Assembly (NCBI GenBank): GCA_023264445.1
Contig: JAHFMN010000001.1
Span: 177,878 to 241,877 of the forward strand
Source of the DNA: Candidatus Kaiserbacteria bacterium
GTDB taxonomy: Bacteria; Patescibacteriota; Minisyncoccia; Phycocordibacterales; Phycocordibacteraceae
Direction: 5' to 3'
DNA: 64,000 bases
Shown piece by piece: positions 5,431 to 57,813 of the stretch. The notes below the pieces were generated by a model, which saw nothing but the letters and a program-made list of their open reading frames with translations, was not told the DNA's origin and did not search any database. The position numbers and the translations under genes are program-made. Every line of letters begins with the position of its first letter. The stretch's first letter is position 1.

Positions 5431-7524
5431 ATGAGCTTTTCTTTTTTTGCAAATATCATTGCACTCCTTTTTTCCTTCTTCATCGTCGGCGCGATTCTGG
5501 GCGCCTTTTTTTACACGTCTCGGCGAGACAATTTCATCCTTAAGCGGGCGCGTGCAAATCCAATACTGAAACCGACTGAACGGGAATGGGAGAACCGGGC
5601 GGTCTTTAATCCAGCGGCGCTCGCCCTAGGCGGTCGAACGCACCTCCTGTATCGCGCAATCGGGCATGATGGCATCTCGCGTTTCGGATATGCATCGTCG
5701 AAAAACGGCATTACGTTTGATGAGCGGCTCGCAGACCCCAGCTATACAAGCGAATATCCTCACGCAGCGAAGGCACCCTCGCAGATGCGCTACGCACCGA
5801 GCCTGTATGCTTCCGGCGGGAGCTGGGGAGGGTGTGAGGATGGACGCATGGTCTTCATTGAAGGCCGGGTTTATCTCTCCTTCTATGCATTTGATGAGAG
5901 CGATATGATCCGGGTCGCTGTCGCCTCCATCGCTTCCGATGATTTTCTCGCACACCGTTTTGACCGCTGGAGCCCGCCCACCTTCCTTTCCCCACCGGGT
6001 CAGATACATAAAAACTGGGTTCTGTTTCCTGAAAAAATAAACGGGAAATTCGCCGTTCTTCATAGCATTGCACCAACGATTGAGATCGCATACCGGGATA
6101 ACCTTGAAGACGTCGGGGGAAAAGAACCGTTTATAGAAAGCTGGTCGGGGCCGCGTACAAACCTGCCACCCAGGGAGAGCGCATGGGATACCACCGTGCT
6201 CGGTGCCGGTCCTCCGCCCATACACACAGCTGCTGGCTGGCTTGTCTTCTATCATGCGCATGATTCGCTTGAACCAACACGCTACAAGCTAGGTGCATTG
6301 CTCCTTGACCTTGCCAACCCTTCCAACGTGCTTGCGCGCGCCGCCGGACCCGTGTTTGAACCAGACGCCCCTTATGAAAATGATTGGAAGCCTGGGATTG
6401 CTTACGCATGCGGTGCGACAGTCGTGAAGGGGATGCTCTATGTGTATTACGGAAGCGGAGAGATGACCGTCTCAGTTGCATCCGCTCCGCTTGATGCCTT
6501 TCTGCAGGCGCTTCTTCATGGAGAACACGCCTCACTGCAGAAAACTGCACACATCCCCGCTACTAACCAGTCGCGCACTGCCCCGCTGCAACGTGAGACA
6601 AAATCTTTGTGCGCCCGCTCGGTCCTGAATCCCATTCTGCGTCCGCAAGGCGAGAGCTTCGAGAATCTTGCGACCTTCAATGCCGCTGCTATCGATATCA
6701 ATGGCTCGGTTCATATTCTCTATCGAGCCATGAGCATCGACCATGTCTCGACAATCGGCTACGCTCGATCAAAGGACGGCATCCACATAGACGAACGTCT
6801 TTCGGAGCCGGTATATCGTCCGCGCGCAGACTTTGAACAGAAACATTCGCATGCGAATTCCGGCTGCGAAGATCCTCGCGTAGTTATGATTGACGACCGG
6901 ATACATATGACGTATGTCGCTGCCGGTGATGTCGGAAAGGTAAAGGGCGTTATTGCCTCGATCTCTCGCGAAGATTTCCTTGCGAAACGCTTTGACCGCT
7001 GGAGCATGCCTACACTCGTCACCATCGAAGGGATCGACGACAAGGATATCTGTCTCCTTCCCGAGAAAATAAACGGACGGTACGTGCTCTATCATCGAAT
7101 CGGGAACCAGATGTGCGCGGCGGTCATCGACGATCTTTCATTCAAAGAGCGCGTGGCCCGTTGTGTAGAAGTGCTCAAACCGCGCGATGGCGCGTGGGAT
7201 GACCTGAAAGTCGGCATCGCAGGACCACCAATCAAGATAAAAGATGACTGGCTCTTGATCTATCATGGCATCGGGAAAAATGGCGTATACGGGCTTGGCG
7301 TTGCCCGCCTCGACTCCTCCGGCTTGCAGGTAAAGGCTCGTCTTGATGCGCCCATTCTTGTTCCGGAGACAGTGTATGAGAAGCACGGCGAGCGCGATAA
7401 TGTCGTATTCTCGTGCGGACAGGTCGTCCGCGGCGATACGATCTTCATCTACTACGGCGCGGCCGATAAGGTGCTCGGCGTCGCAACCGTCTCGCTCTCG
7501 CATATTCTTGATTCTCTTTCATGA
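5431..7524 (+). CDS. membrane-anchored protein with two tandem GH130-family (DUF377 beta-propeller, mannoside phosphorylase/glycosidase-like) domains
   Basis: 697 aa. N-terminal TM helix, then two homologous halves: ILKPTEREWENRAVFNPAALALGGRTHLLYRAIGHDGISRFGYASSKNGITFDERL and ILRPQGESFENLATFNAAAIDINGSVHILYRAMSIDHVSTIGYARSKDGIHIDERL. Each is followed by DFL..RFDRWS and YYG blocks. Confidence 0.75.
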   Translation: MSFSFFANIIALLFSFFIVGAILGAFFYTSRRDNFILKRARANPILKPTEREWENRAVFNPAALALGGRTHLLYRAIGHDGISRFGYASSKNGITFDERLADPSYTSEYPHAAKAPSQMRYAPSLYASGGSWGGCEDGRMVFIEGRVYLSFYAFDESDMIRVAVASIASDDFLAHRFDRWSPPTFLSPPGQIHKNWVLFPEKINGKFAVLHSIAPTIEIAYRDNLEDVGGKEPFIESWSGPRTNLPPRESAWDTTVLGAGPPPIHTAAGWLVFYHAHDSLEPTRYKLGALLLDLANPSNVLARAAGPVFEPDAPYENDWKPGIAYACGATVVKGMLYVYYGSGEMTVSVASAPLDAFLQALLHGEHASLQKTAHIPATNQSRTAPLQRETKSLCARSVLNPILRPQGESFENLATFNAAAIDINGSVHILYRAMSIDHVSTIGYARSKDGIHIDERLSEPVYRPRADFEQKHSHANSGCEDPRVVMIDDRIHMTYVAAGDVGKVKGVIASISREDFLAKRFDRWSMPTLVTIEGIDDKDICLLPEKINGRYVLYHRIGNQMCAAVIDDLSFKERVARCVEVLKPRDGAWDDLKVGIAGPPIKIKDDWLLIYHGIGKNGVYGLGVARLDSSGLQVKARLDAPILVPETVYEKHGERDNVVFSCGQVVRGDTIFIYYGAADKVLGVATVSLSHILDSLS

Positions 7525-53604: not shown

Positions 53605-53677
53605 GTGCTTGGACCCGGGCTCGAACCGGGGACCCCTTCCTCTTCAGGGAAGTGCTCTACCAACTGAGCTATCCAAG
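53605..53677 (-). tRNA. tRNA-Phe (anticodon GAA)
   Basis: Minus strand GCTTGGATAGCTCAGTTGGTAGAGCA-CTTCC-CTGAAGA-GGAAG-GGGTC-CCCGG-TTCGAGC-CCGGG-TCCAAGC-A. Confidence 0.85.
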
Positions 53678-53691
53678 CGCTCTAAAGCGGC

Positions 53692-53976
53692 TTATTGACC
53701 GCCTTTATAGGAGTTTATCAGCTTTTGTAATTCAGCGTAAGTCGGGAAACCGAAGGGACCAGAATTCTGTATCCCGATAGTGGAAGAGAATTGCGAGACG
53801 AACGGCTGCAGGTATTGCTGATAGAGATAGAGCGGCAGAGCGAGCACGATGATCCAAACGACGACTCTCCCCACAAAACCGAGCCACTGATCACGGCGGA
53901 TGGCACGGAGCATCTGATGGTTGTCTTTTGTCAGTACGCGGAGCTCCTCAAGCGTCCGTTTCAGTTCAGGATCCAT
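53692..53976 (-). CDS. hypothetical small membrane protein
   Basis: 94 aa. One TM helix. Sits between the giant repeat protein and tRNA-Phe. Confidence 0.4.
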   Translation of the reverse strand: MDPELKRTLEELRVLTKDNHQMLRAIRRDQWLGFVGRVVVWIIVLALPLYLYQQYLQPFVSQFSSTIGIQNSGPFGFPTYAELQKLINSYKGGQ

Positions 53977-53991
53977 ATGATATGAGCAGCA

Positions 53992-56970
53992 TTAGAGTCC
54001 AAGCTCGGCTTTTAATGCTTCGAGTTTCTGTATCGTAGAAGATCCTATATAGCCAGTGCCCTTGGTTCGACCATTCGGCACGAGTATCTCATCACGGTAC
54101 TTCTCTTGGAATTTTATGACGGCAAATCTTGTGCGAGGACCGAAGTACGTTATCTCATTTCCGGGAGAGCCGGGGCCCGAATCAGCGATTTGCGTCGCGG
54201 GATCACTATTGAGAATCTTCTGAAGGATGAGCACGTTATTACCTTCAGAACCCACTCTCATATCGGTGAAGATGCTTGGAGTAGTGGTGGTCTCATTTGC
54301 CCGATTGTTTGTTTCCGATGCTGATGGAGCGCGTGGAGTCTCTGGTGTCGGCGGTGTTGATGCGTCTGTGGATTTTGGTGGTTTGGTTGCCGTTTGGGTA
54401 GAAACAGGGACCTTGAGAGATACTTTTGCACTCTGGCCGCCACCCATGCACGAGAGAGTAAATACTTTTGTTGAAGTAATGTTGCCGAACTGATGCAGAC
54501 CTGAAGTAGGCAAGAAGATGCCGTTCCAATCCCCCGTTGCGGTACAGGAAGTCGCAGGAGATGTCGCATTCCACGAGAGGATAGTGGAACCGCCGGGAGA
54601 AACAGAGGAAGGGTTCGCAGTTAATTGTACTTCGATAGATGAACGCGCCCGTTCAGCGACAGCAACCGTTATGCTTTTCGTAAATTGATATCCATTTGCA
54701 CCGGTACAGGTGAGTGTATAGGTCTGATCGTCAGTTAAGTTACCCGTAGAGAAGGTGCCACTCCTCGTTTTGGTGCCGCTCCATGCCCCCGAGGCCGTAC
54801 AGGAAGTCGCACTTGCGACCGACCACAAGAGCGTGGATGCACCATTGTAGCGAATGGAGGATGGGGACGCAGAAAATGCTGGGGTGGGGAGAGTTTTTTG
54901 CAAGGAAATGGCACTTACAGAGGTTATCTCCGGGGATGCACAGCTTGTATCACTGGGCTTCTGTGCAGAACAGGAACCGTTGCATTGTATGGCACCCGTA
55001 CTAATCTGGCCGCAGGCGTTCGGGCTGGAGGTGCAGGCCGCACCGTAGCCGGCTGGAACATCCGGTGTTTCCGCATCACATACTCCCTCATCCATCGTAC
55101 CGGAATTGGTCTGCCCGCAGGCGTTCGGGGCGGAAGTACAAGATTGAGAGATATTTACTAACGTTACTATTGGACACTCCAAATCAGAGGGTTCAACTGC
55201 AGAACAGGAACCATTGCAACTGATAGTGCCGACATCGGTCATGCCGCAGGCGTTCGGGCTGGAGGTGCAGGCCGCACCGTAGCCGGCTGGAGTCGCCGGT
55301 ACGTCTGCATTACAAACACCATGTACTACCGTACCGGTACTGGTGGAGCCGCAGGCATTTGCAGCGGAGATACAGGATTGGGCGGCAGTAGGTGCAGCGG
55401 TAGCGGCAGTAGATGCAGTAGGAGTAGAGGCCGGACAAGAAGCGTTGGAAGGCCTTCTGGCCGAGCAGGAGCCGTTGCATTTTATCGTACCGGAATTGGT
55501 CTGCCCGCAGGCGTTCGGGCTAGAGGTGCAGGCCGTGCCATAGCTCGCAGGGGTCGCAGGTGTTCGCGCACTGCACAAACTGTTGCATCCGATGGTGCCG
55601 GTACTCCTTTGTCCGCAGGCGTTCGGGCTGGAGGTGCAGGCCGCACCGTAGCCGGCTGGATTCGCAGGAATTGAAGCGCTGCACGAGCCATTGATGACGG
55701 TCCCGGTGTTGGTCTGTCCGCACGCATTTGCGGCGGAGGTACAAGAAACAACTGCGAGAGGTGTCACCGGACAACTTGCATCTGATGGCTTTGCTGCCGT
55801 ACAAGAGCCATTACACCCAGTCGTGCCGGAATTGGTCTGCCCGCAGGCGTTCGGGGCGGAAGTACAACTGGAACCATAGGTAGGAGGATTGGCGGGAGTT
55901 GAGACATTGCACGAACCATTACAACCGATAGTGCCGCTGTTTCTCTGACCGCACGCATTTGCGGCGGAGGTACAGACCGTGTCGTAGCCGGCTGGATTCG
56001 CAGGAATTGAAGCGCTGCACGAGCCATTGATGACGGTCCCGGTGTTGGTCTGTCCGCAAGCATTTGCGGCGGAGGTGCAGGACTGAGGAGCGGTAAGTAT
56101 TGATTGAGTATCTGCTTGAACCGTTACGGTTGGTGCCTGCAAGAAAGGTACGCTTACTATTTTTTTAACCTGCACCAGCTGAAAATTAACGGTGTTATTG
56201 CACATAATCCAGAAGTTTATGAACCTCGTCTGGATAGGATTAAAAAAAGTTCCTAAGAGCTTCATCGAGACGGTGCCAGAAGTCGGACGTTGTGCAATAG
56301 CGATACTGGAACCAACATTCGAGTTGTACACGAGCTCATAATCGGCGTACGCGTTCAGTACGCAGTAGGCCGCATTGCTTGTAGACCAGCTTATGGTTGC
56401 CGTATCTCCGACGGAGATTCCTGACGATGGAGAAACAGTAAAGCTATCTATGGTCGGCGGATTCGCTCCTATGGTCGTCGTCGTGGGCGGTGGAGAAGAT
56501 GGAGGATTAGCAACCGTAAATGTTCTCGGTGTTCCTTGATAGATTGCACCTTGGCTGATTCCGGCAAAGAAAATCTTGTGATCGCCAGGCGCCAATACTC
56601 CTAAGTTTGCTGTAAAGGCGTTTGCGGGCGCAATTTGGTGTCGGTACGCACTACATGCTTCAAAATTGCTTTCCTGCAGGGTGGTCGCTAACGGGCAGTC
56701 GAGCACATACCACATCACGAGGAAGTTGTATGCGGGATTGATATTTCCAGAGATGGTGACCGGGGATCCGGTAGGATATGGGTTGAGTAGCGAATAGGAG
56801 AGTACGCCGCTCACCGTTGTCGCCCCACCTATATTGACTCCTCCCGTCACGGCGCCTCCTATTTGCGCTTTGGCGGTAATTGGCAAGAAACTGAAGAAAA
56901 GAATCGGGAGGATAACAAGAAAAGGCTGTGCTGACCTCCCAAACTTGCTTGCAAAAAATTTCCTACTCAT
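53992..56970 (-). CDS. large secreted Cys-rich tandem-repeat surface protein with Ig-like domains and C-terminal peptidoglycan-binding (PG_binding_1-like) domain
   Basis: 992 aa. Signal peptide, then about 10 copies of CTS[AS][AP]NACGQxxxGT...C...P(A/S)xY modules. Ig-like segments follow (…SC.A.G.W.G…T..Y.L.C.G). The C-terminus DMRVGSEGNNVLILQKILN...ITYFGPRTRFAVIKFQEKY matches the PG-binding fold. Confidence 0.8.
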   Translation of the reverse strand: MSRKFFASKFGRSAQPFLVILPILFFSFLPITAKAQIGGAVTGGVNIGGATTVSGVLSYSLLNPYPTGSPVTISGNINPAYNFLVMWYVLDCPLATTLQESNFEACSAYRHQIAPANAFTANLGVLAPGDHKIFFAGISQGAIYQGTPRTFTVANPPSSPPPTTTTIGANPPTIDSFTVSPSSGISVGDTATISWSTSNAAYCVLNAYADYELVYNSNVGSSIAIAQRPTSGTVSMKLLGTFFNPIQTRFINFWIMCNNTVNFQLVQVKKIVSVPFLQAPTVTVQADTQSILTAPQSCTSAANACGQTNTGTVINGSCSASIPANPAGYDTVCTSAANACGQRNSGTIGCNGSCNVSTPANPPTYGSSCTSAPNACGQTNSGTTGCNGSCTAAKPSDASCPVTPLAVVSCTSAANACGQTNTGTVINGSCSASIPANPAGYGAACTSSPNACGQRSTGTIGCNSLCSARTPATPASYGTACTSSPNACGQTNSGTIKCNGSCSARRPSNASCPASTPTASTAATAAPTAAQSCISAANACGSTSTGTVVHGVCNADVPATPAGYGAACTSSPNACGMTDVGTISCNGSCSAVEPSDLECPIVTLVNISQSCTSAPNACGQTNSGTMDEGVCDAETPDVPAGYGAACTSSPNACGQISTGAIQCNGSCSAQKPSDTSCASPEITSVSAISLQKTLPTPAFSASPSSIRYNGASTLLWSVASATSCTASGAWSGTKTRSGTFSTGNLTDDQTYTLTCTGANGYQFTKSITVAVAERARSSIEVQLTANPSSVSPGGSTILSWNATSPATSCTATGDWNGIFLPTSGLHQFGNITSTKVFTLSCMGGGQSAKVSLKVPVSTQTATKPPKSTDASTPPTPETPRAPSASETNNRANETTTTPSIFTDMRVGSEGNNVLILQKILNSDPATQIADSGPGSPGNEITYFGPRTRFAVIKFQEKYRDEILVPNGRTKGTGYIGSSTIQKLEALKAELGL
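54930..56079 (-). repeat. intragenic tandem DNA repeats (about 105-120 bp units, higher-order ~324 bp) encoding the Cys-rich modules
   Basis: Recurrent strings such as ggccgcaccgtagccggctgga and ctgcccgcaggcgttcgggc on the plus strand. The protein repeat spans about aa 298-680. Confidence 0.7.
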
Positions 56971-57173
56971 TGTGGAGTGGTGGGAGTTAGCATGGGAGCT
57001 AGCTGTGCACGCTCTTCTGCAGAAAGCGAGTTAAGAACCGCCGCCGCCGTTTGACTGTTAAGCGGCTGCAGTATTCCTGAATCCGTCACTATGTGGCTAT
57101 TCTTATAATTAAGAAGGTAGATGACAAGCGCTAATGCGAGAAGGAAGATACATGCACTGGAGACGTATTTCAT
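56967..57173 (-). CDS. hypothetical small membrane protein
   Basis: About 68 aa from MKYVSSACIFLLALALVIYLL; the alternative start at 57224 is possible. Stop overlaps the giant-protein start. Confidence 0.35.
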   Translation of the reverse strand: MKYVSSACIFLLALALVIYLLNYKNSHIVTDSGILQPLNSQTAAAVLNSLSAEERAQLAPMLTPTTPQ

Positions 57174-57301
57174 AATTACCTGCCCCGTCGATAGATCTTC
57201 GGGTTCCATGGATACCAAGATCATAGCCCGGTTTTTTTGATAAAAATAAGTTATTAACAGGCCTTTTTGACGTAAAAAGTCACAGAATTGCACACTGACA
57301 G

Positions 57302-57373
57302 TGCCCCCTCCAGGAGTCGAACCTGAATCAGCTCGTTAGGAGTGAGCCGTTCTATCCATTGAACTAAGGGGGC
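57302..57373 (-). tRNA. tRNA-Arg (anticodon CCT)
   Basis: Minus strand GCCCCCTTAGTTCAATGGATAGAACG-GCTCA-CTCCTAA-CGAGC-TGAT-TCAGG-TTCGACT-CCTGG-AGGGGGC-A. There is one A-C mismatch at the base of the anticodon stem. Confidence 0.65.
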
Positions 57374-57378
57374 TAGGG

Positions 57379-57621
57379 CTATGCGGTAATGCCGAGGGAG
57401 GACACGAGCCTCTCCTTATCAAAACCGATGATCATGTCGTTTCCGACAAAAATGACCGGTACGCCCATCTGGCCGGATTTCTGTATCATTTCCTGGCGCT
57501 TTTCCAGATCTTGCGCAACATTATAATCAGTATAGGCAATTCCCTTTTCCTTTAGGAAATCCTTGGTCATCTGGCAGAAGTGACAAGTCGGTGTGCTGTA
57601 AATAGTAATGGTTTTGTCCAT
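57379..57621 (-). CDS. glutaredoxin-like protein (NrdH/Grx family)
   Basis: 80 aa from MDKTITIYSTPTCHFCQ (CxxC) and GVPVIFVGNDMIIGFD. Confidence 0.7.
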   Translation of the reverse strand: MDKTITIYSTPTCHFCQMTKDFLKEKGIAYTDYNVAQDLEKRQEMIQKSGQMGVPVIFVGNDMIIGFDKERLVSSLGITA

Positions 57622-57742
57622 GTTCGTAGTGTTATGCGGGAAGTATACCACCTACAGTTATCCACAGAAATAGCAGTGCGGGTACCGGGAATCGGACTCG
57701 GGTCTCAACCCTTGCCCCGTTAGATATTCATCTATTTATCTG

Positions 57743-57813
57743 TGCGGAATGGGAGAATCGAACTCCCGCCCGTTGCTTGGGAAGCAACTGTTCTACCACT
57801 AAACCAATTCCGC
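57743..57813 (-). tRNA. tRNA-Gly (anticodon CCC)
   Basis: Minus strand GCGGAATTGGTTTAGTGGTAGAACA-GTTGC-TTCCCAA-GCAAC-GGGC-GGGAG-TTCGATT-CTCCC-ATTCCGC-A. Confidence 0.8.

What the first reader, a model, noticed from the sequence alone, without database searches (positions are those of the whole stretch)
53992..56970. 992-aa Cys-rich tandem-repeat surface protein with peptidoglycan-binding anchor
The protein has a signal peptide and about 10 copies of a ~35-aa module starting CTS(A/S)(A/P)NACGQ..GT. The modules fall into three subtypes arranged as a higher-order triplet repeat. Ig-like beta-sandwich segments follow, then a C-terminal PG_binding_1-like domain. The DNA contains near-identical ~100-300-bp repeats, so the locus is prone to recombinational expansion or contraction. 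I do not recognise the Cys-rich module as a described family. A cell-wall-anchored, Cys-knot-like repeat array is a plausible adhesin or S-layer-like component.
Basis: seen in the sequence. Interest (0 to 1): 0.75.

Follow-up and report, generated by a model that had tools for sequence, protein, structure and literature searches.

The report
Wall-anchored protein with new cysteine repeat
A tiny uncultured (CPR/Patescibacteria) bacterium encodes a secreted, cell-wall-tethered surface protein. Its central stalk is ten copies of a 36-residue cysteine-rich module that no domain library names, and its cysteine pattern suggests that neighbouring modules are stapled together by disulfide bonds.

Summary
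The 992-aa ORF at 53992-56970 (-) is real. It carries exactly ten ~36-aa modules (CTSxxNACGxTxxGT..C..C). These are followed by two Ig/PKD-like domains, a Ser/Thr/Pro linker and a divergent PG_binding_1 domain.

Three details of the finding are off:
- Modules have 3, 4 or 5 Cys, not six.
- Their order is ABC-ABC-AC-AC, not pure triplets.
- Only one ~99-nt DNA pair is near-identical (96%). The 300-nt pair is 77% identical.

The module matches no Pfam or NCBIfam model and no PDB sequence. A confident AlphaFold model of one ABC unit (pLDDT 92) matches no solved fold. The family is modest in size: about 700 clusters at 50% identity, mostly Patescibacteria with some Myxococcota.

Across 192 proteins a parity rule holds. 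A module keeps its third Cys only when the upstream linker has 0 or 2 Cys (376:1). It lacks that Cys when the linker has 1 (19:1). This fits start, middle and cap variants joined by inter-module disulfides.

Best reading: a rigid, wall-anchored stalk or adhesin. I found no strain variants, so repeat-number polymorphism is untested. Verdict: a new domain family inside an ordinary kind of surface protein, of moderate interest.

The parts
53992..56970 (-). Whole CDS, 992 aa plus stop
   Evidence: The identical product is called on 3 public contigs.
56866..56970 (-). Sec-type signal peptide, aa 1-35 (MSRKFFASKFGRS... LPITAKA|Q)
   Evidence: It is the only Kyte-Doolittle window above 1.6 (aa 13-37), followed by an AxA-type site. 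The cleavage site is inferred.
56476..56865 (-). N-terminal orphan domain, aa 36-165, 2 Cys (C92, C106); presumed distal tip
   Evidence: No homologue was found and there is no Pfam hit. The boundaries are approximate.
56101..56457 (-). Divergent, longer copy of the Ig-like domain, aa ~172-290 (C203, C257)
   Evidence: Partial match of the Ig-domain HMM at aa 176-207, E 1.6e-5 (1.1e-4). Weak BLAST matches to Ig-like regions of homologues.
55768..56079 (-). Module unit 1: A1-B1-C1, aa 298-401, 12 Cys
   Evidence: AF2 model of aa 292-408 has pLDDT 91.9.
55432..55743 (-). Module unit 2: A2-B2-C2, aa 410-513, 12 Cys
55171..55374 (-). Module unit 3: A3-C3, aa 533-600, 8 Cys
54937..55140 (-). Module unit 4: A4-C4, aa 611-678, 8 Cys
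55981..56079 (-). A1 copy of the only near-identical DNA repeat (partner 55645-55743): 96% over 99 nt with a 76-nt exact run, 336 nt apart and in frame
   Evidence: It has 2 synonymous and 1 non-synonymous codon differences, against 25 for B1/B2 and 20 for C1/C2.
55645..55743 (-). A2 copy of the near-identical repeat
54646..54891 (-). Ig/PKD-like domain 1, aa 694-775 (C724, C755)
   Evidence: AF2 pLDDT 91.1, eight strands. Foldseek top hits are Ig, CEACAM and PKD domains with TM 0.6-0.7.
54397..54630 (-). Ig/PKD-like domain 2, aa 781-858 (C809, C841)
   Evidence: HMM match E 2e-24. Paralogue of domain 1.
54265..54396 (-). Ser/Thr/Pro-rich linker, aa 859-902 (57% S+T+P)
54007..54264 (-). Divergent PG_binding_1 domain, aa 903-988; presumed wall anchor
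   Evidence: PF01471 at 22.7 bits (cut-off 23) for the isolated domain. 23 of 24 orthologous copies hit it, best E 5.1e-10. The profile's top PDB matches are PG-binding domains, but weak.
56967..57293 (-). Small upstream ORF (85-108 aa, one hydrophobic helix); its stop overlaps the start of the 992-aa gene (ATGA)
   Evidence: No Pfam family. Functional link not shown.
53692..53976 (-). Small downstream ORF (94 aa, one hydrophobic helix), 15 nt after the stop
   Evidence: No Pfam family. Functional link not shown.

Best explanation
The gene encodes a secreted surface protein of a Paceibacteria-type (CPR/Patescibacteria) bacterium.

Proposed layout:
- The protein is held non-covalently in the cell wall by its C-terminal PG_binding_1-type domain.
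- It projects outward through a flexible Ser/Thr/Pro linker, two Ig/PKD-like domains and a ~380-residue stalk of ten copies of an undescribed ~36-aa disulfide-rich module.
- It ends in a third Ig-like domain and an orphan N-terminal domain, which would be the distal, ligand-contacting tip.

Proposed stalk construction:
- The stalk is four closed units (A-B-C, A-B-C, A-C, A-C).
- 'A' is a start module that lacks the third Cys. 'B' is a middle module with four Cys. 'C' is a cap module with an extra fifth Cys.
- Each module keeps one internal disulfide and donates one Cys to the third Cys of the next module.
- The last module's donor is satisfied by its own cap Cys, so every Cys in a unit is paired (12, 12, 8 and 8 Cys) and adjacent modules are covalently stapled into a stiff rod.

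What is shown: the domain architecture, the module family and its grammar, the parity rule, confident fold predictions, and the absence of any named family.

What is inferred: secretion, disulfide rather than metal chemistry, the inter-module pairing, wall anchoring, and the spacer/adhesin role.
For: Architecture and context:
- ORF, signal peptide and single hydrophobic segment.
- PG_binding_1: 23 of 24 orthologous domains hit PF01471, best E 5e-10; the window's own copy scores 22.7 bits against a cut-off of 23.
- The genome encodes the MurJ lipid II flippase nearby, so it makes peptidoglycan.
- Ig/PKD fold for aa 694-775.

Module family:
- The HMM finds 844 modules in 201 proteins, and an Ig-like domain directly follows the array in 55 of 103.
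- The profile finds 701 clusters among 1.84 billion representatives.
- The AF2 model of one A-B-C unit has pLDDT 91.9, with two to three short strands per module.

Grammar:
- Arrays read [A|B]B*C.
- Junction parity rule: linker with 0 Cys, next module has Cys3 in 328:0; linker with 1 Cys, next module lacks Cys3 in 19:1; linker with 2 Cys, next module has Cys3 in 48:1. Fisher p = 3e-30.
- Stand-alone modules in other proteins have six Cys, adding C0 about 8 residues before C1 and C5 after C4.
- 237 of 283 array-terminal modules carry the cap Cys.

Host: the neighbouring LepA is 85-87% identical to Patescibacteria, Paceibacterota and Kaiserbacteria proteins.
Against: - No coordinates were available, so no S-S distance was read. 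The inter-module pairing rests on sequence grammar alone.
- The junction counts come from related proteins and are not independent events.
- pTM is only 0.59, so relative module orientation is uncertain.
- The window's own PG_binding_1 score is just under Pfam's cut-off, and the profile-to-PDB matches are weak (E 0.015-0.85).
- Among 201 module-bearing proteins, this is the only one with that anchor domain.
- No ligand, partner or expression data exist, and the N-terminal 'tip' has no homologues at all.
- About a dozen first modules keep Cys3 with no recognisable upstream partner.
Confidence: 0.6

Rival explanations
1. It is an S-layer-like or lattice-forming envelope component. The protein would self-assemble into a two-dimensional coat on the wall rather than act as an individual stalk or adhesin.
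For: It is wall-anchored, abundant in Ser, Thr, Ala and Gly, and has Ig-like domains. From my own knowledge, CPR cells imaged by cryo-EM show surface layers.
Against: No SLH, lattice-forming or S-layer family was detected. The architecture (one anchor, long rod, unique tip) is that of a fibrillar protein. The gene has no close orthologues even in related genomes, unlike a core envelope protein.
Confidence: 0.1
2. The Cys modules are metal-binding (Zn knuckle or Cu, MopE-like) units, not disulfide-bonded ones. The protein would sequester or sense metals at the cell surface.
For: B modules have four Cys including a C-x3-C pair. There are weak hits to the SPRTN zinc-binding domain in 11 of 21 units (best E 0.0012). 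MopE and Dicty_CTDC domains co-occur in some homologues.
Against: The SPRTN_ZBD matches cover only 11-12 residues at 11-14 bits against a cut-off of 27. The MopE, CTDC and DUF4215 hits lie outside the module arrays. A modules have 3 Cys and C modules 5. The strict even-parity rule across junctions is what paired cysteines predict, not independent four-ligand sites. The protein has an export signal.
Confidence: 0.08
3. It is an array of small disulfide-rich protease-inhibitor domains (pacifastin-like or Kazal-like) displayed on the surface to block host or environmental proteases.
For: A 2026 study reports structure-only 'pacifastin-like' domains in Myxobacteria and CPR (PMC13388995). That is the same pair of phyla in which this module occurs.
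Confidence: 0.05
4. The repeat number or order is an assembly artefact (collapse or chimera of repeats), so the 992-aa architecture is not real.
For: It comes from a metagenome assembly. There is one 76-nt exact repeat and three 48-49-nt exact repeats inside the gene.
Against: Repeats are mostly 43-73% identical at DNA level, and the exact runs are shorter than a typical read. The reading frame is intact through all ten modules. Every unit obeys the family-wide Cys grammar. The identical 992-aa product is found on three contigs of different lengths (46.7 kb and 255 kb among them).
Confidence: 0.03

Closest known systems
Modular Gram-positive-type cell-wall-associated adhesins or stalk proteins with a non-covalent wall-binding domain (PG_binding_1, LysM, SLH, CWB classes)
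   Same: Signal peptide, one wall-binding domain at a terminus, a low-complexity linker, Ig-like spacer domains, a tandem-repeat stalk and a unique distal domain.
   Different: The stalk module is an unnamed Cys-rich unit. The anchor is a Patescibacteria-specific branch of PG_binding_1 that is usually N-terminal in other proteins.
Thrombospondin type-1 repeat (PF00090), including the bacterial copies in homologues P0013, P0028, P0036 and P0095
   Same: A small, elongated, disulfide-rich extracellular module. True TSRs sit immediately upstream of this module's arrays in some homologues.
   Different: No WxxW or CSxTCG signature. hhalign probability is 0.2%. There is no Pfam TSP_1 hit on the modules. 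It is a different domain.
TNF-receptor cysteine-rich domains and LRR N-/C-terminal caps (analogy from general knowledge, not tested)
   Same: Rods built from a small vocabulary of Cys-module subtypes, with distinct first, middle and last (cap) variants.
   Different: No sequence or fold match. Here the grammar implies that a disulfide crosses each module boundary, which is not the rule in those families.
Myxococcus cysteine-rich repeat (DUF4215, PF13948), MopE Cu-binding motif (PF11617) and Dicty_CTDC (PF00526)
   Same: Cys-rich repeats of secreted proteins in Myxococcota and relatives. They co-occur in the same proteins (P0007, P0074).
   Different: Those Pfam hits map to other segments (aa 206-241 and 624-704 in the two proteins) than the module arrays (aa 754-1000 in P0007). 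No NCBIfam or Pfam hit falls on the modules.
Pacifastin-like domains reported in CPR and Myxobacteria (PMC13388995)
   Same: ~35-aa disulfide-rich unit, the same two bacterial groups, and tandem copies.
   Different: The Cys number and spacing do not fit. The proteins there are short (77-238 aa). There is no sequence or structure match here.

Membership tests
PG_binding_1 (PF01471) | Profile match at or above Pfam's gathering score | tested here: inconclusive
   Whole protein: 13.7 bits, E 0.071. Isolated domain: 22.7 bits against a cut-off of 23, E 1.2e-4. 23 of 24 orthologous copies match at E<=0.01, best 5.1e-10.
PG_binding_1 (PF01471) | Relatives with solved structures are PG-binding three-helix domains | tested here: inconclusive
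   Five of the nine matches are PG-binding or cell-wall-enzyme domains: 5tv7, 1lbu, phiKZ gp144 (listed under two entries, 9xps and 3bkh), 4xxt and SleB. All are weak, E 0.015-0.85. This domain was not modelled.
PG_binding_1 (PF01471) | Binds peptidoglycan | not testable with these tools
   Needs a sacculus pull-down with aa 896-992.
Ig-like / PKD beta-sandwich | Seven-to-eight-strand beta-sandwich fold | tested here: met
   AF2 pLDDT 91.1 with eight strands. Foldseek prob 1.00 and TM 0.6-0.7 to CEACAM, PKD (1l0q, 2y72, 4tn9) and Fc-receptor domains.
Ig-like / PKD beta-sandwich | Membership of a named Pfam Ig or PKD family | tested here: not met
   Only 3 of 26 copies give a weak K319L-like_PKD hit (E 0.01). 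The PDB sequence profile finds nothing.
Thrombospondin type-1 repeat (PF00090) | WxxW and CSxTCGxG motifs, ~50 aa, six Cys, profile match | tested here: not met
   No Trp in the modules. hhalign against bacterial TSRs from homologues gives probability 0.2%. No Pfam hit.
Pacifastin-like domain (PF05375) | Six Cys with the pacifastin spacing; bridges 1-4, 2-6 and 3-5 | tested here: not met
   The modules have 3-5 Cys spaced C-x6-C-x9-C-x3-C(-x9-C). No Pfam hit at E<=1. No PDB fold match. The bridge topology itself could not be read.
Myxococcus Cys-rich repeat / DUF4215 / MopE / Dicty_CTDC | Profile match on the repeat | tested here: not met
   No hit on the query or on 21 module triplets. In P0007 and P0074 these families map outside the module array.
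Zinc-binding domain (SPRTN_ZBD, PF22934) | Profile match over the 48-position domain | tested here: not met
   11-14 bits against a cut-off of 27, covering only profile positions 4-16 (the C-x3-C stretch).
Unnamed 'CTSxxNACG' module family (defined here) | ~36-aa unit with S3, N6, C8, G9, G14, C22 and P27 nearly invariant; arrays read [A|B]B*C; junction Cys parity | tested here: met
   All ten modules fit. The units read ABC, ABC, AC, AC. All nine of its junctions obey the parity rule.

The most novel reading that the evidence does not exclude
The module is a new small fold whose arrays are held together by an obligatory relay of disulfides crossing every module boundary. A 'donor' Cys of module i pairs with Cys3 of module i+1. 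Dedicated start (A) and cap (C) variants, or linker Cys C0 and C5, terminate the relay. That would be a distinct construction principle for rigid extracellular rods. It would be used mainly by CPR bacteria, which depend on cell-cell attachment, and shared with Myxococcota.
Probability: 0.4. Interest if true: 0.6.

Novelty: new variant of a known kind. Interest (0 to 1): 0.5.

Why it matters
CPR/Patescibacteria are thought to live attached to other cells, yet almost nothing is known about the proteins that make contact. This finding contributes three things:
- It defines a recurrent, unnamed building block of their large surface proteins: about 700 clusters, with a confident predicted structure and no solved relative.
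- It gives a simple sequence rule that predicts how the block is stapled into rods.
- It shows that a conserved PG_binding_1-type domain is probably the general wall anchor of such proteins.

All three can be turned into profile models for annotation. They can also be tested with one recombinant fragment. The gene itself is not extraordinary: it is a modular surface protein of a familiar kind.

Tried and rejected
- **Thrombospondin repeat.** Suggested by Pfam labels on homologues. The TSRs are separate domains next to the arrays, and hhalign probability is 0.2%.
- **SPRTN zinc-binding domain.** An 11-residue C-x3-C match far below the cut-off.
- **Myxococcus Cys-rich repeat, MopE, Dicty_CTDC.** These map elsewhere in the homologues.
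- **Pacifastin-like.** The Cys spacing does not fit, and the sequences of the reported bacterial examples could not be obtained.
- **Relaxed module finder.** A relaxed regular expression created spurious overlapping modules, even in the query, and was discarded in favour of the strict one.
- **N-terminal 255 aa.** The homologue search returned nothing, not even the parent protein. This shows no detectable relatives but also a limit of the word index.
- **Strain or length variants.** No orthologue above ~45% identity in GTDB genomes or JGI metagenomes, and the 90% cluster has one member.
- **Literature searches for a named CPR Cys-rich repeat.** These gave only the general remark that Peribacteria encode large Cys-rich extracellular proteins (PMC4736985).
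- **Promoter and terminator scans.** At or below the shuffle expectation.
Full report
**1. The observation**

The ORF is at 53992-56970 on the minus strand, 992 aa, starting with ATG. It is the longest ORF in the window. The pattern C[TI]S[AS][AP]NACG occurs exactly ten times, at aa 298, 333, 369, 410, 445, 481, 533, 568, 611 and 646. 40 of the protein's 48 Cys lie in this stretch. Each copy scores E 1e-16 to 1e-18 against a module HMM, and no other ORF in the window carries it.

There are three subtypes.

| Type | Length | Cys | Distinguishing feature |
|---|---|---|---|
| A | 35 aa | 3 | lacks the Cys at module column 18 |
| B | 36 aa | 4 | C-x6-C-x9-C-x3-C |
| C | 36 aa core | 5 | extra Cys at column 32, usually 'SCP' |

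Their order is A-B-C, A-B-C, a 16-aa extra linker, then A-C, A-C. So the finding's 'triplet higher-order repeat' is only half right, and 'six Cys' is wrong for this protein.

At DNA level only A1/A2 is near-identical.
- A1/A2 is 96% identical over 99 nt, with a 76-nt exact run, 336 nt apart.
- Three 48-49-nt exact copies span the junction after A2, A3 and A4.
- Other module pairs are 43-73% identical, and the 300-nt pair is 77%.
- Tandem Repeats Finder sees no array in the module region.
- A1/A2 differ at 3 codons, against 25 for B1/B2 and 20 for C1/C2. The ABC duplication is therefore old, and the A modules were probably homogenised by local gene conversion.

**2. Architecture**

- **Signal peptide.** The only hydrophobic segment is aa 13-37, followed by AKA|Q. 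This looks like a Sec signal peptide (cleavage site inferred).
- **N-terminal region, aa 36-290.** This stretch has no Pfam hit, and a homologue search with it returned nothing.
- **Third Ig-like copy.** Within that region, aa ~172-290 is a divergent copy of the Ig-like domain (HMM E 1.6e-5).
- **Ig-like domains.** After the modules come two ~80-aa domains at aa 694-775 and 781-858. AlphaFold2 on a 26-sequence alignment of the first gives pLDDT 91.1 and eight strands. Foldseek's best PDB matches are Ig, CEACAM, PKD and Fc-receptor domains with TM 0.6-0.7. No named Pfam Ig or PKD family is matched.
- **Linker.** aa 859-902 is 57% Ser, Thr and Pro.
- **C-terminal domain, aa 903-988.** It scores 22.7 bits on PF01471 when scanned alone (cut-off 23). 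23 of 24 orthologous copies from other genomes hit PF01471, best E 5.1e-10. Five of the nine matches of the domain profile in PDB are PG-binding or cell-wall-enzyme domains, though all are weak.
- **How common the anchor domain is.** Copies 50-67% identical occur in hundreds of Patescibacteria contigs. In most of 31 loci inspected it lies 65-95 residues into an ORF that runs on for about 1000 aa or to the end of the locus. In five it is C-terminal.

**3. The organism**

The neighbouring LepA is 85-87% identical to proteins labelled Patescibacteria, Paceibacterota or Kaiserbacteria. Neighbouring genes are housekeeping: ValRS, Hsp20, LepA, MurJ, ClpB, GyrA and IF-2. MurJ shows the cell makes peptidoglycan. 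GC content over the gene matches the window.

The gene sits between two small single-helix ORFs. The upstream one overlaps its start by ATGA. The three-gene block is bracketed by tRNA genes.

**4. The module family**

No library names the module.
- Pfam and NCBIfam find nothing on the modules.
- A triplet profile finds no PDB sequence at E<=10.
- A whole-protein search returned 101 relatives that match mainly through the modules. Their source names are CARDB, PKD, PQQ propeller, TSP1, MopE-related or hypothetical. None refers to this repeat.
- An exhaustive HMM search of 1.84 billion representatives found 701 proteins at E<=1e-3, 299 at E<=1e-10 and 95 at E<=1e-30.

The hosts named are mostly Patescibacteria. 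Also named are Sandaracinus and another Deltaproteobacteria MAG, and single Dehalococcoidales, Acidobacteriota and Binatia records.

The consensus is CTSxANACGQTNSGTIQCNGSCSATTPANPAGYG. S3, N6, C8, G9, G14, C22 and P27 are almost invariant.

**5. Grammar and the disulfide model**

- In 101 homologues, arrays read [A or B], then B repeated, then C.
- Stand-alone modules in other proteins (P0014, P0027) have six Cys. They add C0 about 8 residues before C1, and C5 after C4.
- With a strict module finder (712 modules in 192 proteins), the number of Cys in the linker predicts the next module.

| Cys in upstream linker | Next module has Cys3 | Next module lacks Cys3 |
|---|---|---|
| 0 | 328 | 0 |
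| 1 | 1 | 19 |
| 2 | 48 | 1 |

- Fisher p is 3e-30. The sequences are related, so this overstates independence.
- 237 of 283 array-terminal modules carry C5.
- Nearly all 'first' modules with Cys3 but no C0 turned out to follow a degenerate module that the strict finder had missed.

The simplest model has three rules.
- C0 pairs with Cys3.
- A donor Cys (one of C1, C2 or C4) pairs with C5.
- When two modules are fused, C5 and C0 are both dropped and the donor of module i pairs with Cys3 of module i+1.

Under this model A modules (no C0, no Cys3) start a unit and C modules (with C5) close it. That makes the four units here 12, 12, 8 and 8 Cys, all paired.

The alternative is that C0 and C5 clasp each other. 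That would require the two ends of arrays of 2 to 6 or more modules to meet, which is unlikely for a chain of separate mini-domains. I could not read coordinates, so which Cys is the donor, and the model itself, remain inference.

**6. Function**

- Shown: the domain architecture, the family, the grammar and the fold predictions.
- Inferred: the protein is exported, tethered to the wall by its C-terminal PG_binding_1 domain, and extends a stiff, disulfide-stapled stalk that presents the orphan N-terminal domain. That is a spacer or adhesin of a bacterium that probably lives attached to other cells.
- The cassette 'module array then Ig-like domain' recurs: 55 of 103 proteins have the Ig-like domain directly after the array. 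The anchor domain is unique to this protein among 201 module-bearing proteins. Ten modules is at the high end (median 3; 14 proteins have ten or more).

**7. Rivals**

- **S-layer component.** No lattice domain was found, and the gene is not conserved among relatives.
- **Metal-binding modules.** The parity rule, the 3/4/5 Cys counts and the trivial SPRTN_ZBD matches argue against this.
- **Protease-inhibitor array, pacifastin-like.** It is intriguing that PMC13388995 reports such domains in CPR and Myxobacteria. However, the Cys pattern does not fit and nothing matched here.
- **Assembly artefact.** The repeats are diverged, the frame is intact, every unit obeys the grammar, and the identical product lies on three contigs.

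**8. Polymorphism**

In-frame exact repeats of 48-76 nt, spaced 234, 336, 369 and 603 nt apart, could support unequal recombination. No allele or close orthologue exists in the collections searched, so this remains untested.

**9. Verdict**

This is an ordinary kind of protein: a modular, wall-anchored surface protein. It is built around an apparently undescribed Cys-rich module family with a clear start, middle and cap grammar that predicts inter-module disulfides. I rate it a new variant of a known kind, of moderate interest.

Noticed in passing
In most of 31 loci inspected it sits 65-95 aa into an ORF that runs on for about 1000 aa or to the end of the locus; in five it is C-terminal. It looks like a general wall anchor of CPR giant surface proteins. 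Pfam's PF01471 only marginally recognises it.
   Followed up: partly
window 56967-57293 (-) and 53692-53976 (-): Two small ORFs (85-108 aa and 94 aa), each with one hydrophobic helix and no Pfam family, flank the big gene on the same strand. The upstream stop overlaps the big gene's ATG (ATGA), which suggests translational coupling.
   Followed up: partly
window 57302-57373 (-), 53606-53678 (-), 57743-57813 (-): tRNA genes bracket the three-gene block on the same strand. The window holds 11 tRNA genes in all.
   Followed up: no
window 57379-57651 (-): A glutaredoxin-family gene (CHFC motif, no signal peptide) lies just upstream of the block. It is probably cytoplasmic and unrelated to extracellular disulfide formation. 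No DsbA- or VKOR-like gene was looked for in the rest of the window.
   Followed up: no
window 55645-55743 vs 55981-56079 (-): A1 and A2 differ at 3 codons, while the B and C modules of the same two units differ at 25 and 20 codons. This points to a local gene-conversion tract of about 95 nt inside an old duplication.
   Followed up: yes
homologues P0013, P0028, P0036, P0095: Bona fide thrombospondin type-1 repeats (PF00090, E 1e-6 to 1e-8) occur in Patescibacteria proteins. In three of the four (P0028, P0036, P0095) the TSR lies directly upstream of the module array. An extra Cys a few residues before the first module follows the TSR in two (P0036, P0095), where the proposed C0 would be.
   Followed up: partly
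homologues P0003, P0015: Some arrays interleave the module with a second short Cys unit (CGNACFNDGAKNCDNQC in P0003; C-x4-CC-x4-C in P0015). This gives compound repeats of 51-66 aa.
   Followed up: no
literature: PMC13388995 (Sci Rep 2026): The paper reports structure-only 'pacifastin-like' domains in Myxobacteria and CPR, the same phyletic pair as this module. Those are small proteins of 77-238 aa. Whether they are the same or a sister family could not be checked, because no sequences were held.
   Followed up: partly
tool behaviour: the search for homologous proteins with aa 36-290 of the query returned no hit at all, not even the parent protein P0001. The absence of homologues for the N-terminal region is therefore weaker evidence than it looks.
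   Followed up: no
window 5431-7524 (+): A 697-aa protein with a GH130 (beta-1,4-mannooligosaccharide phosphorylase) domain in its C-terminal half. The N-terminal ~400 aa are unassigned.
   Followed up: no
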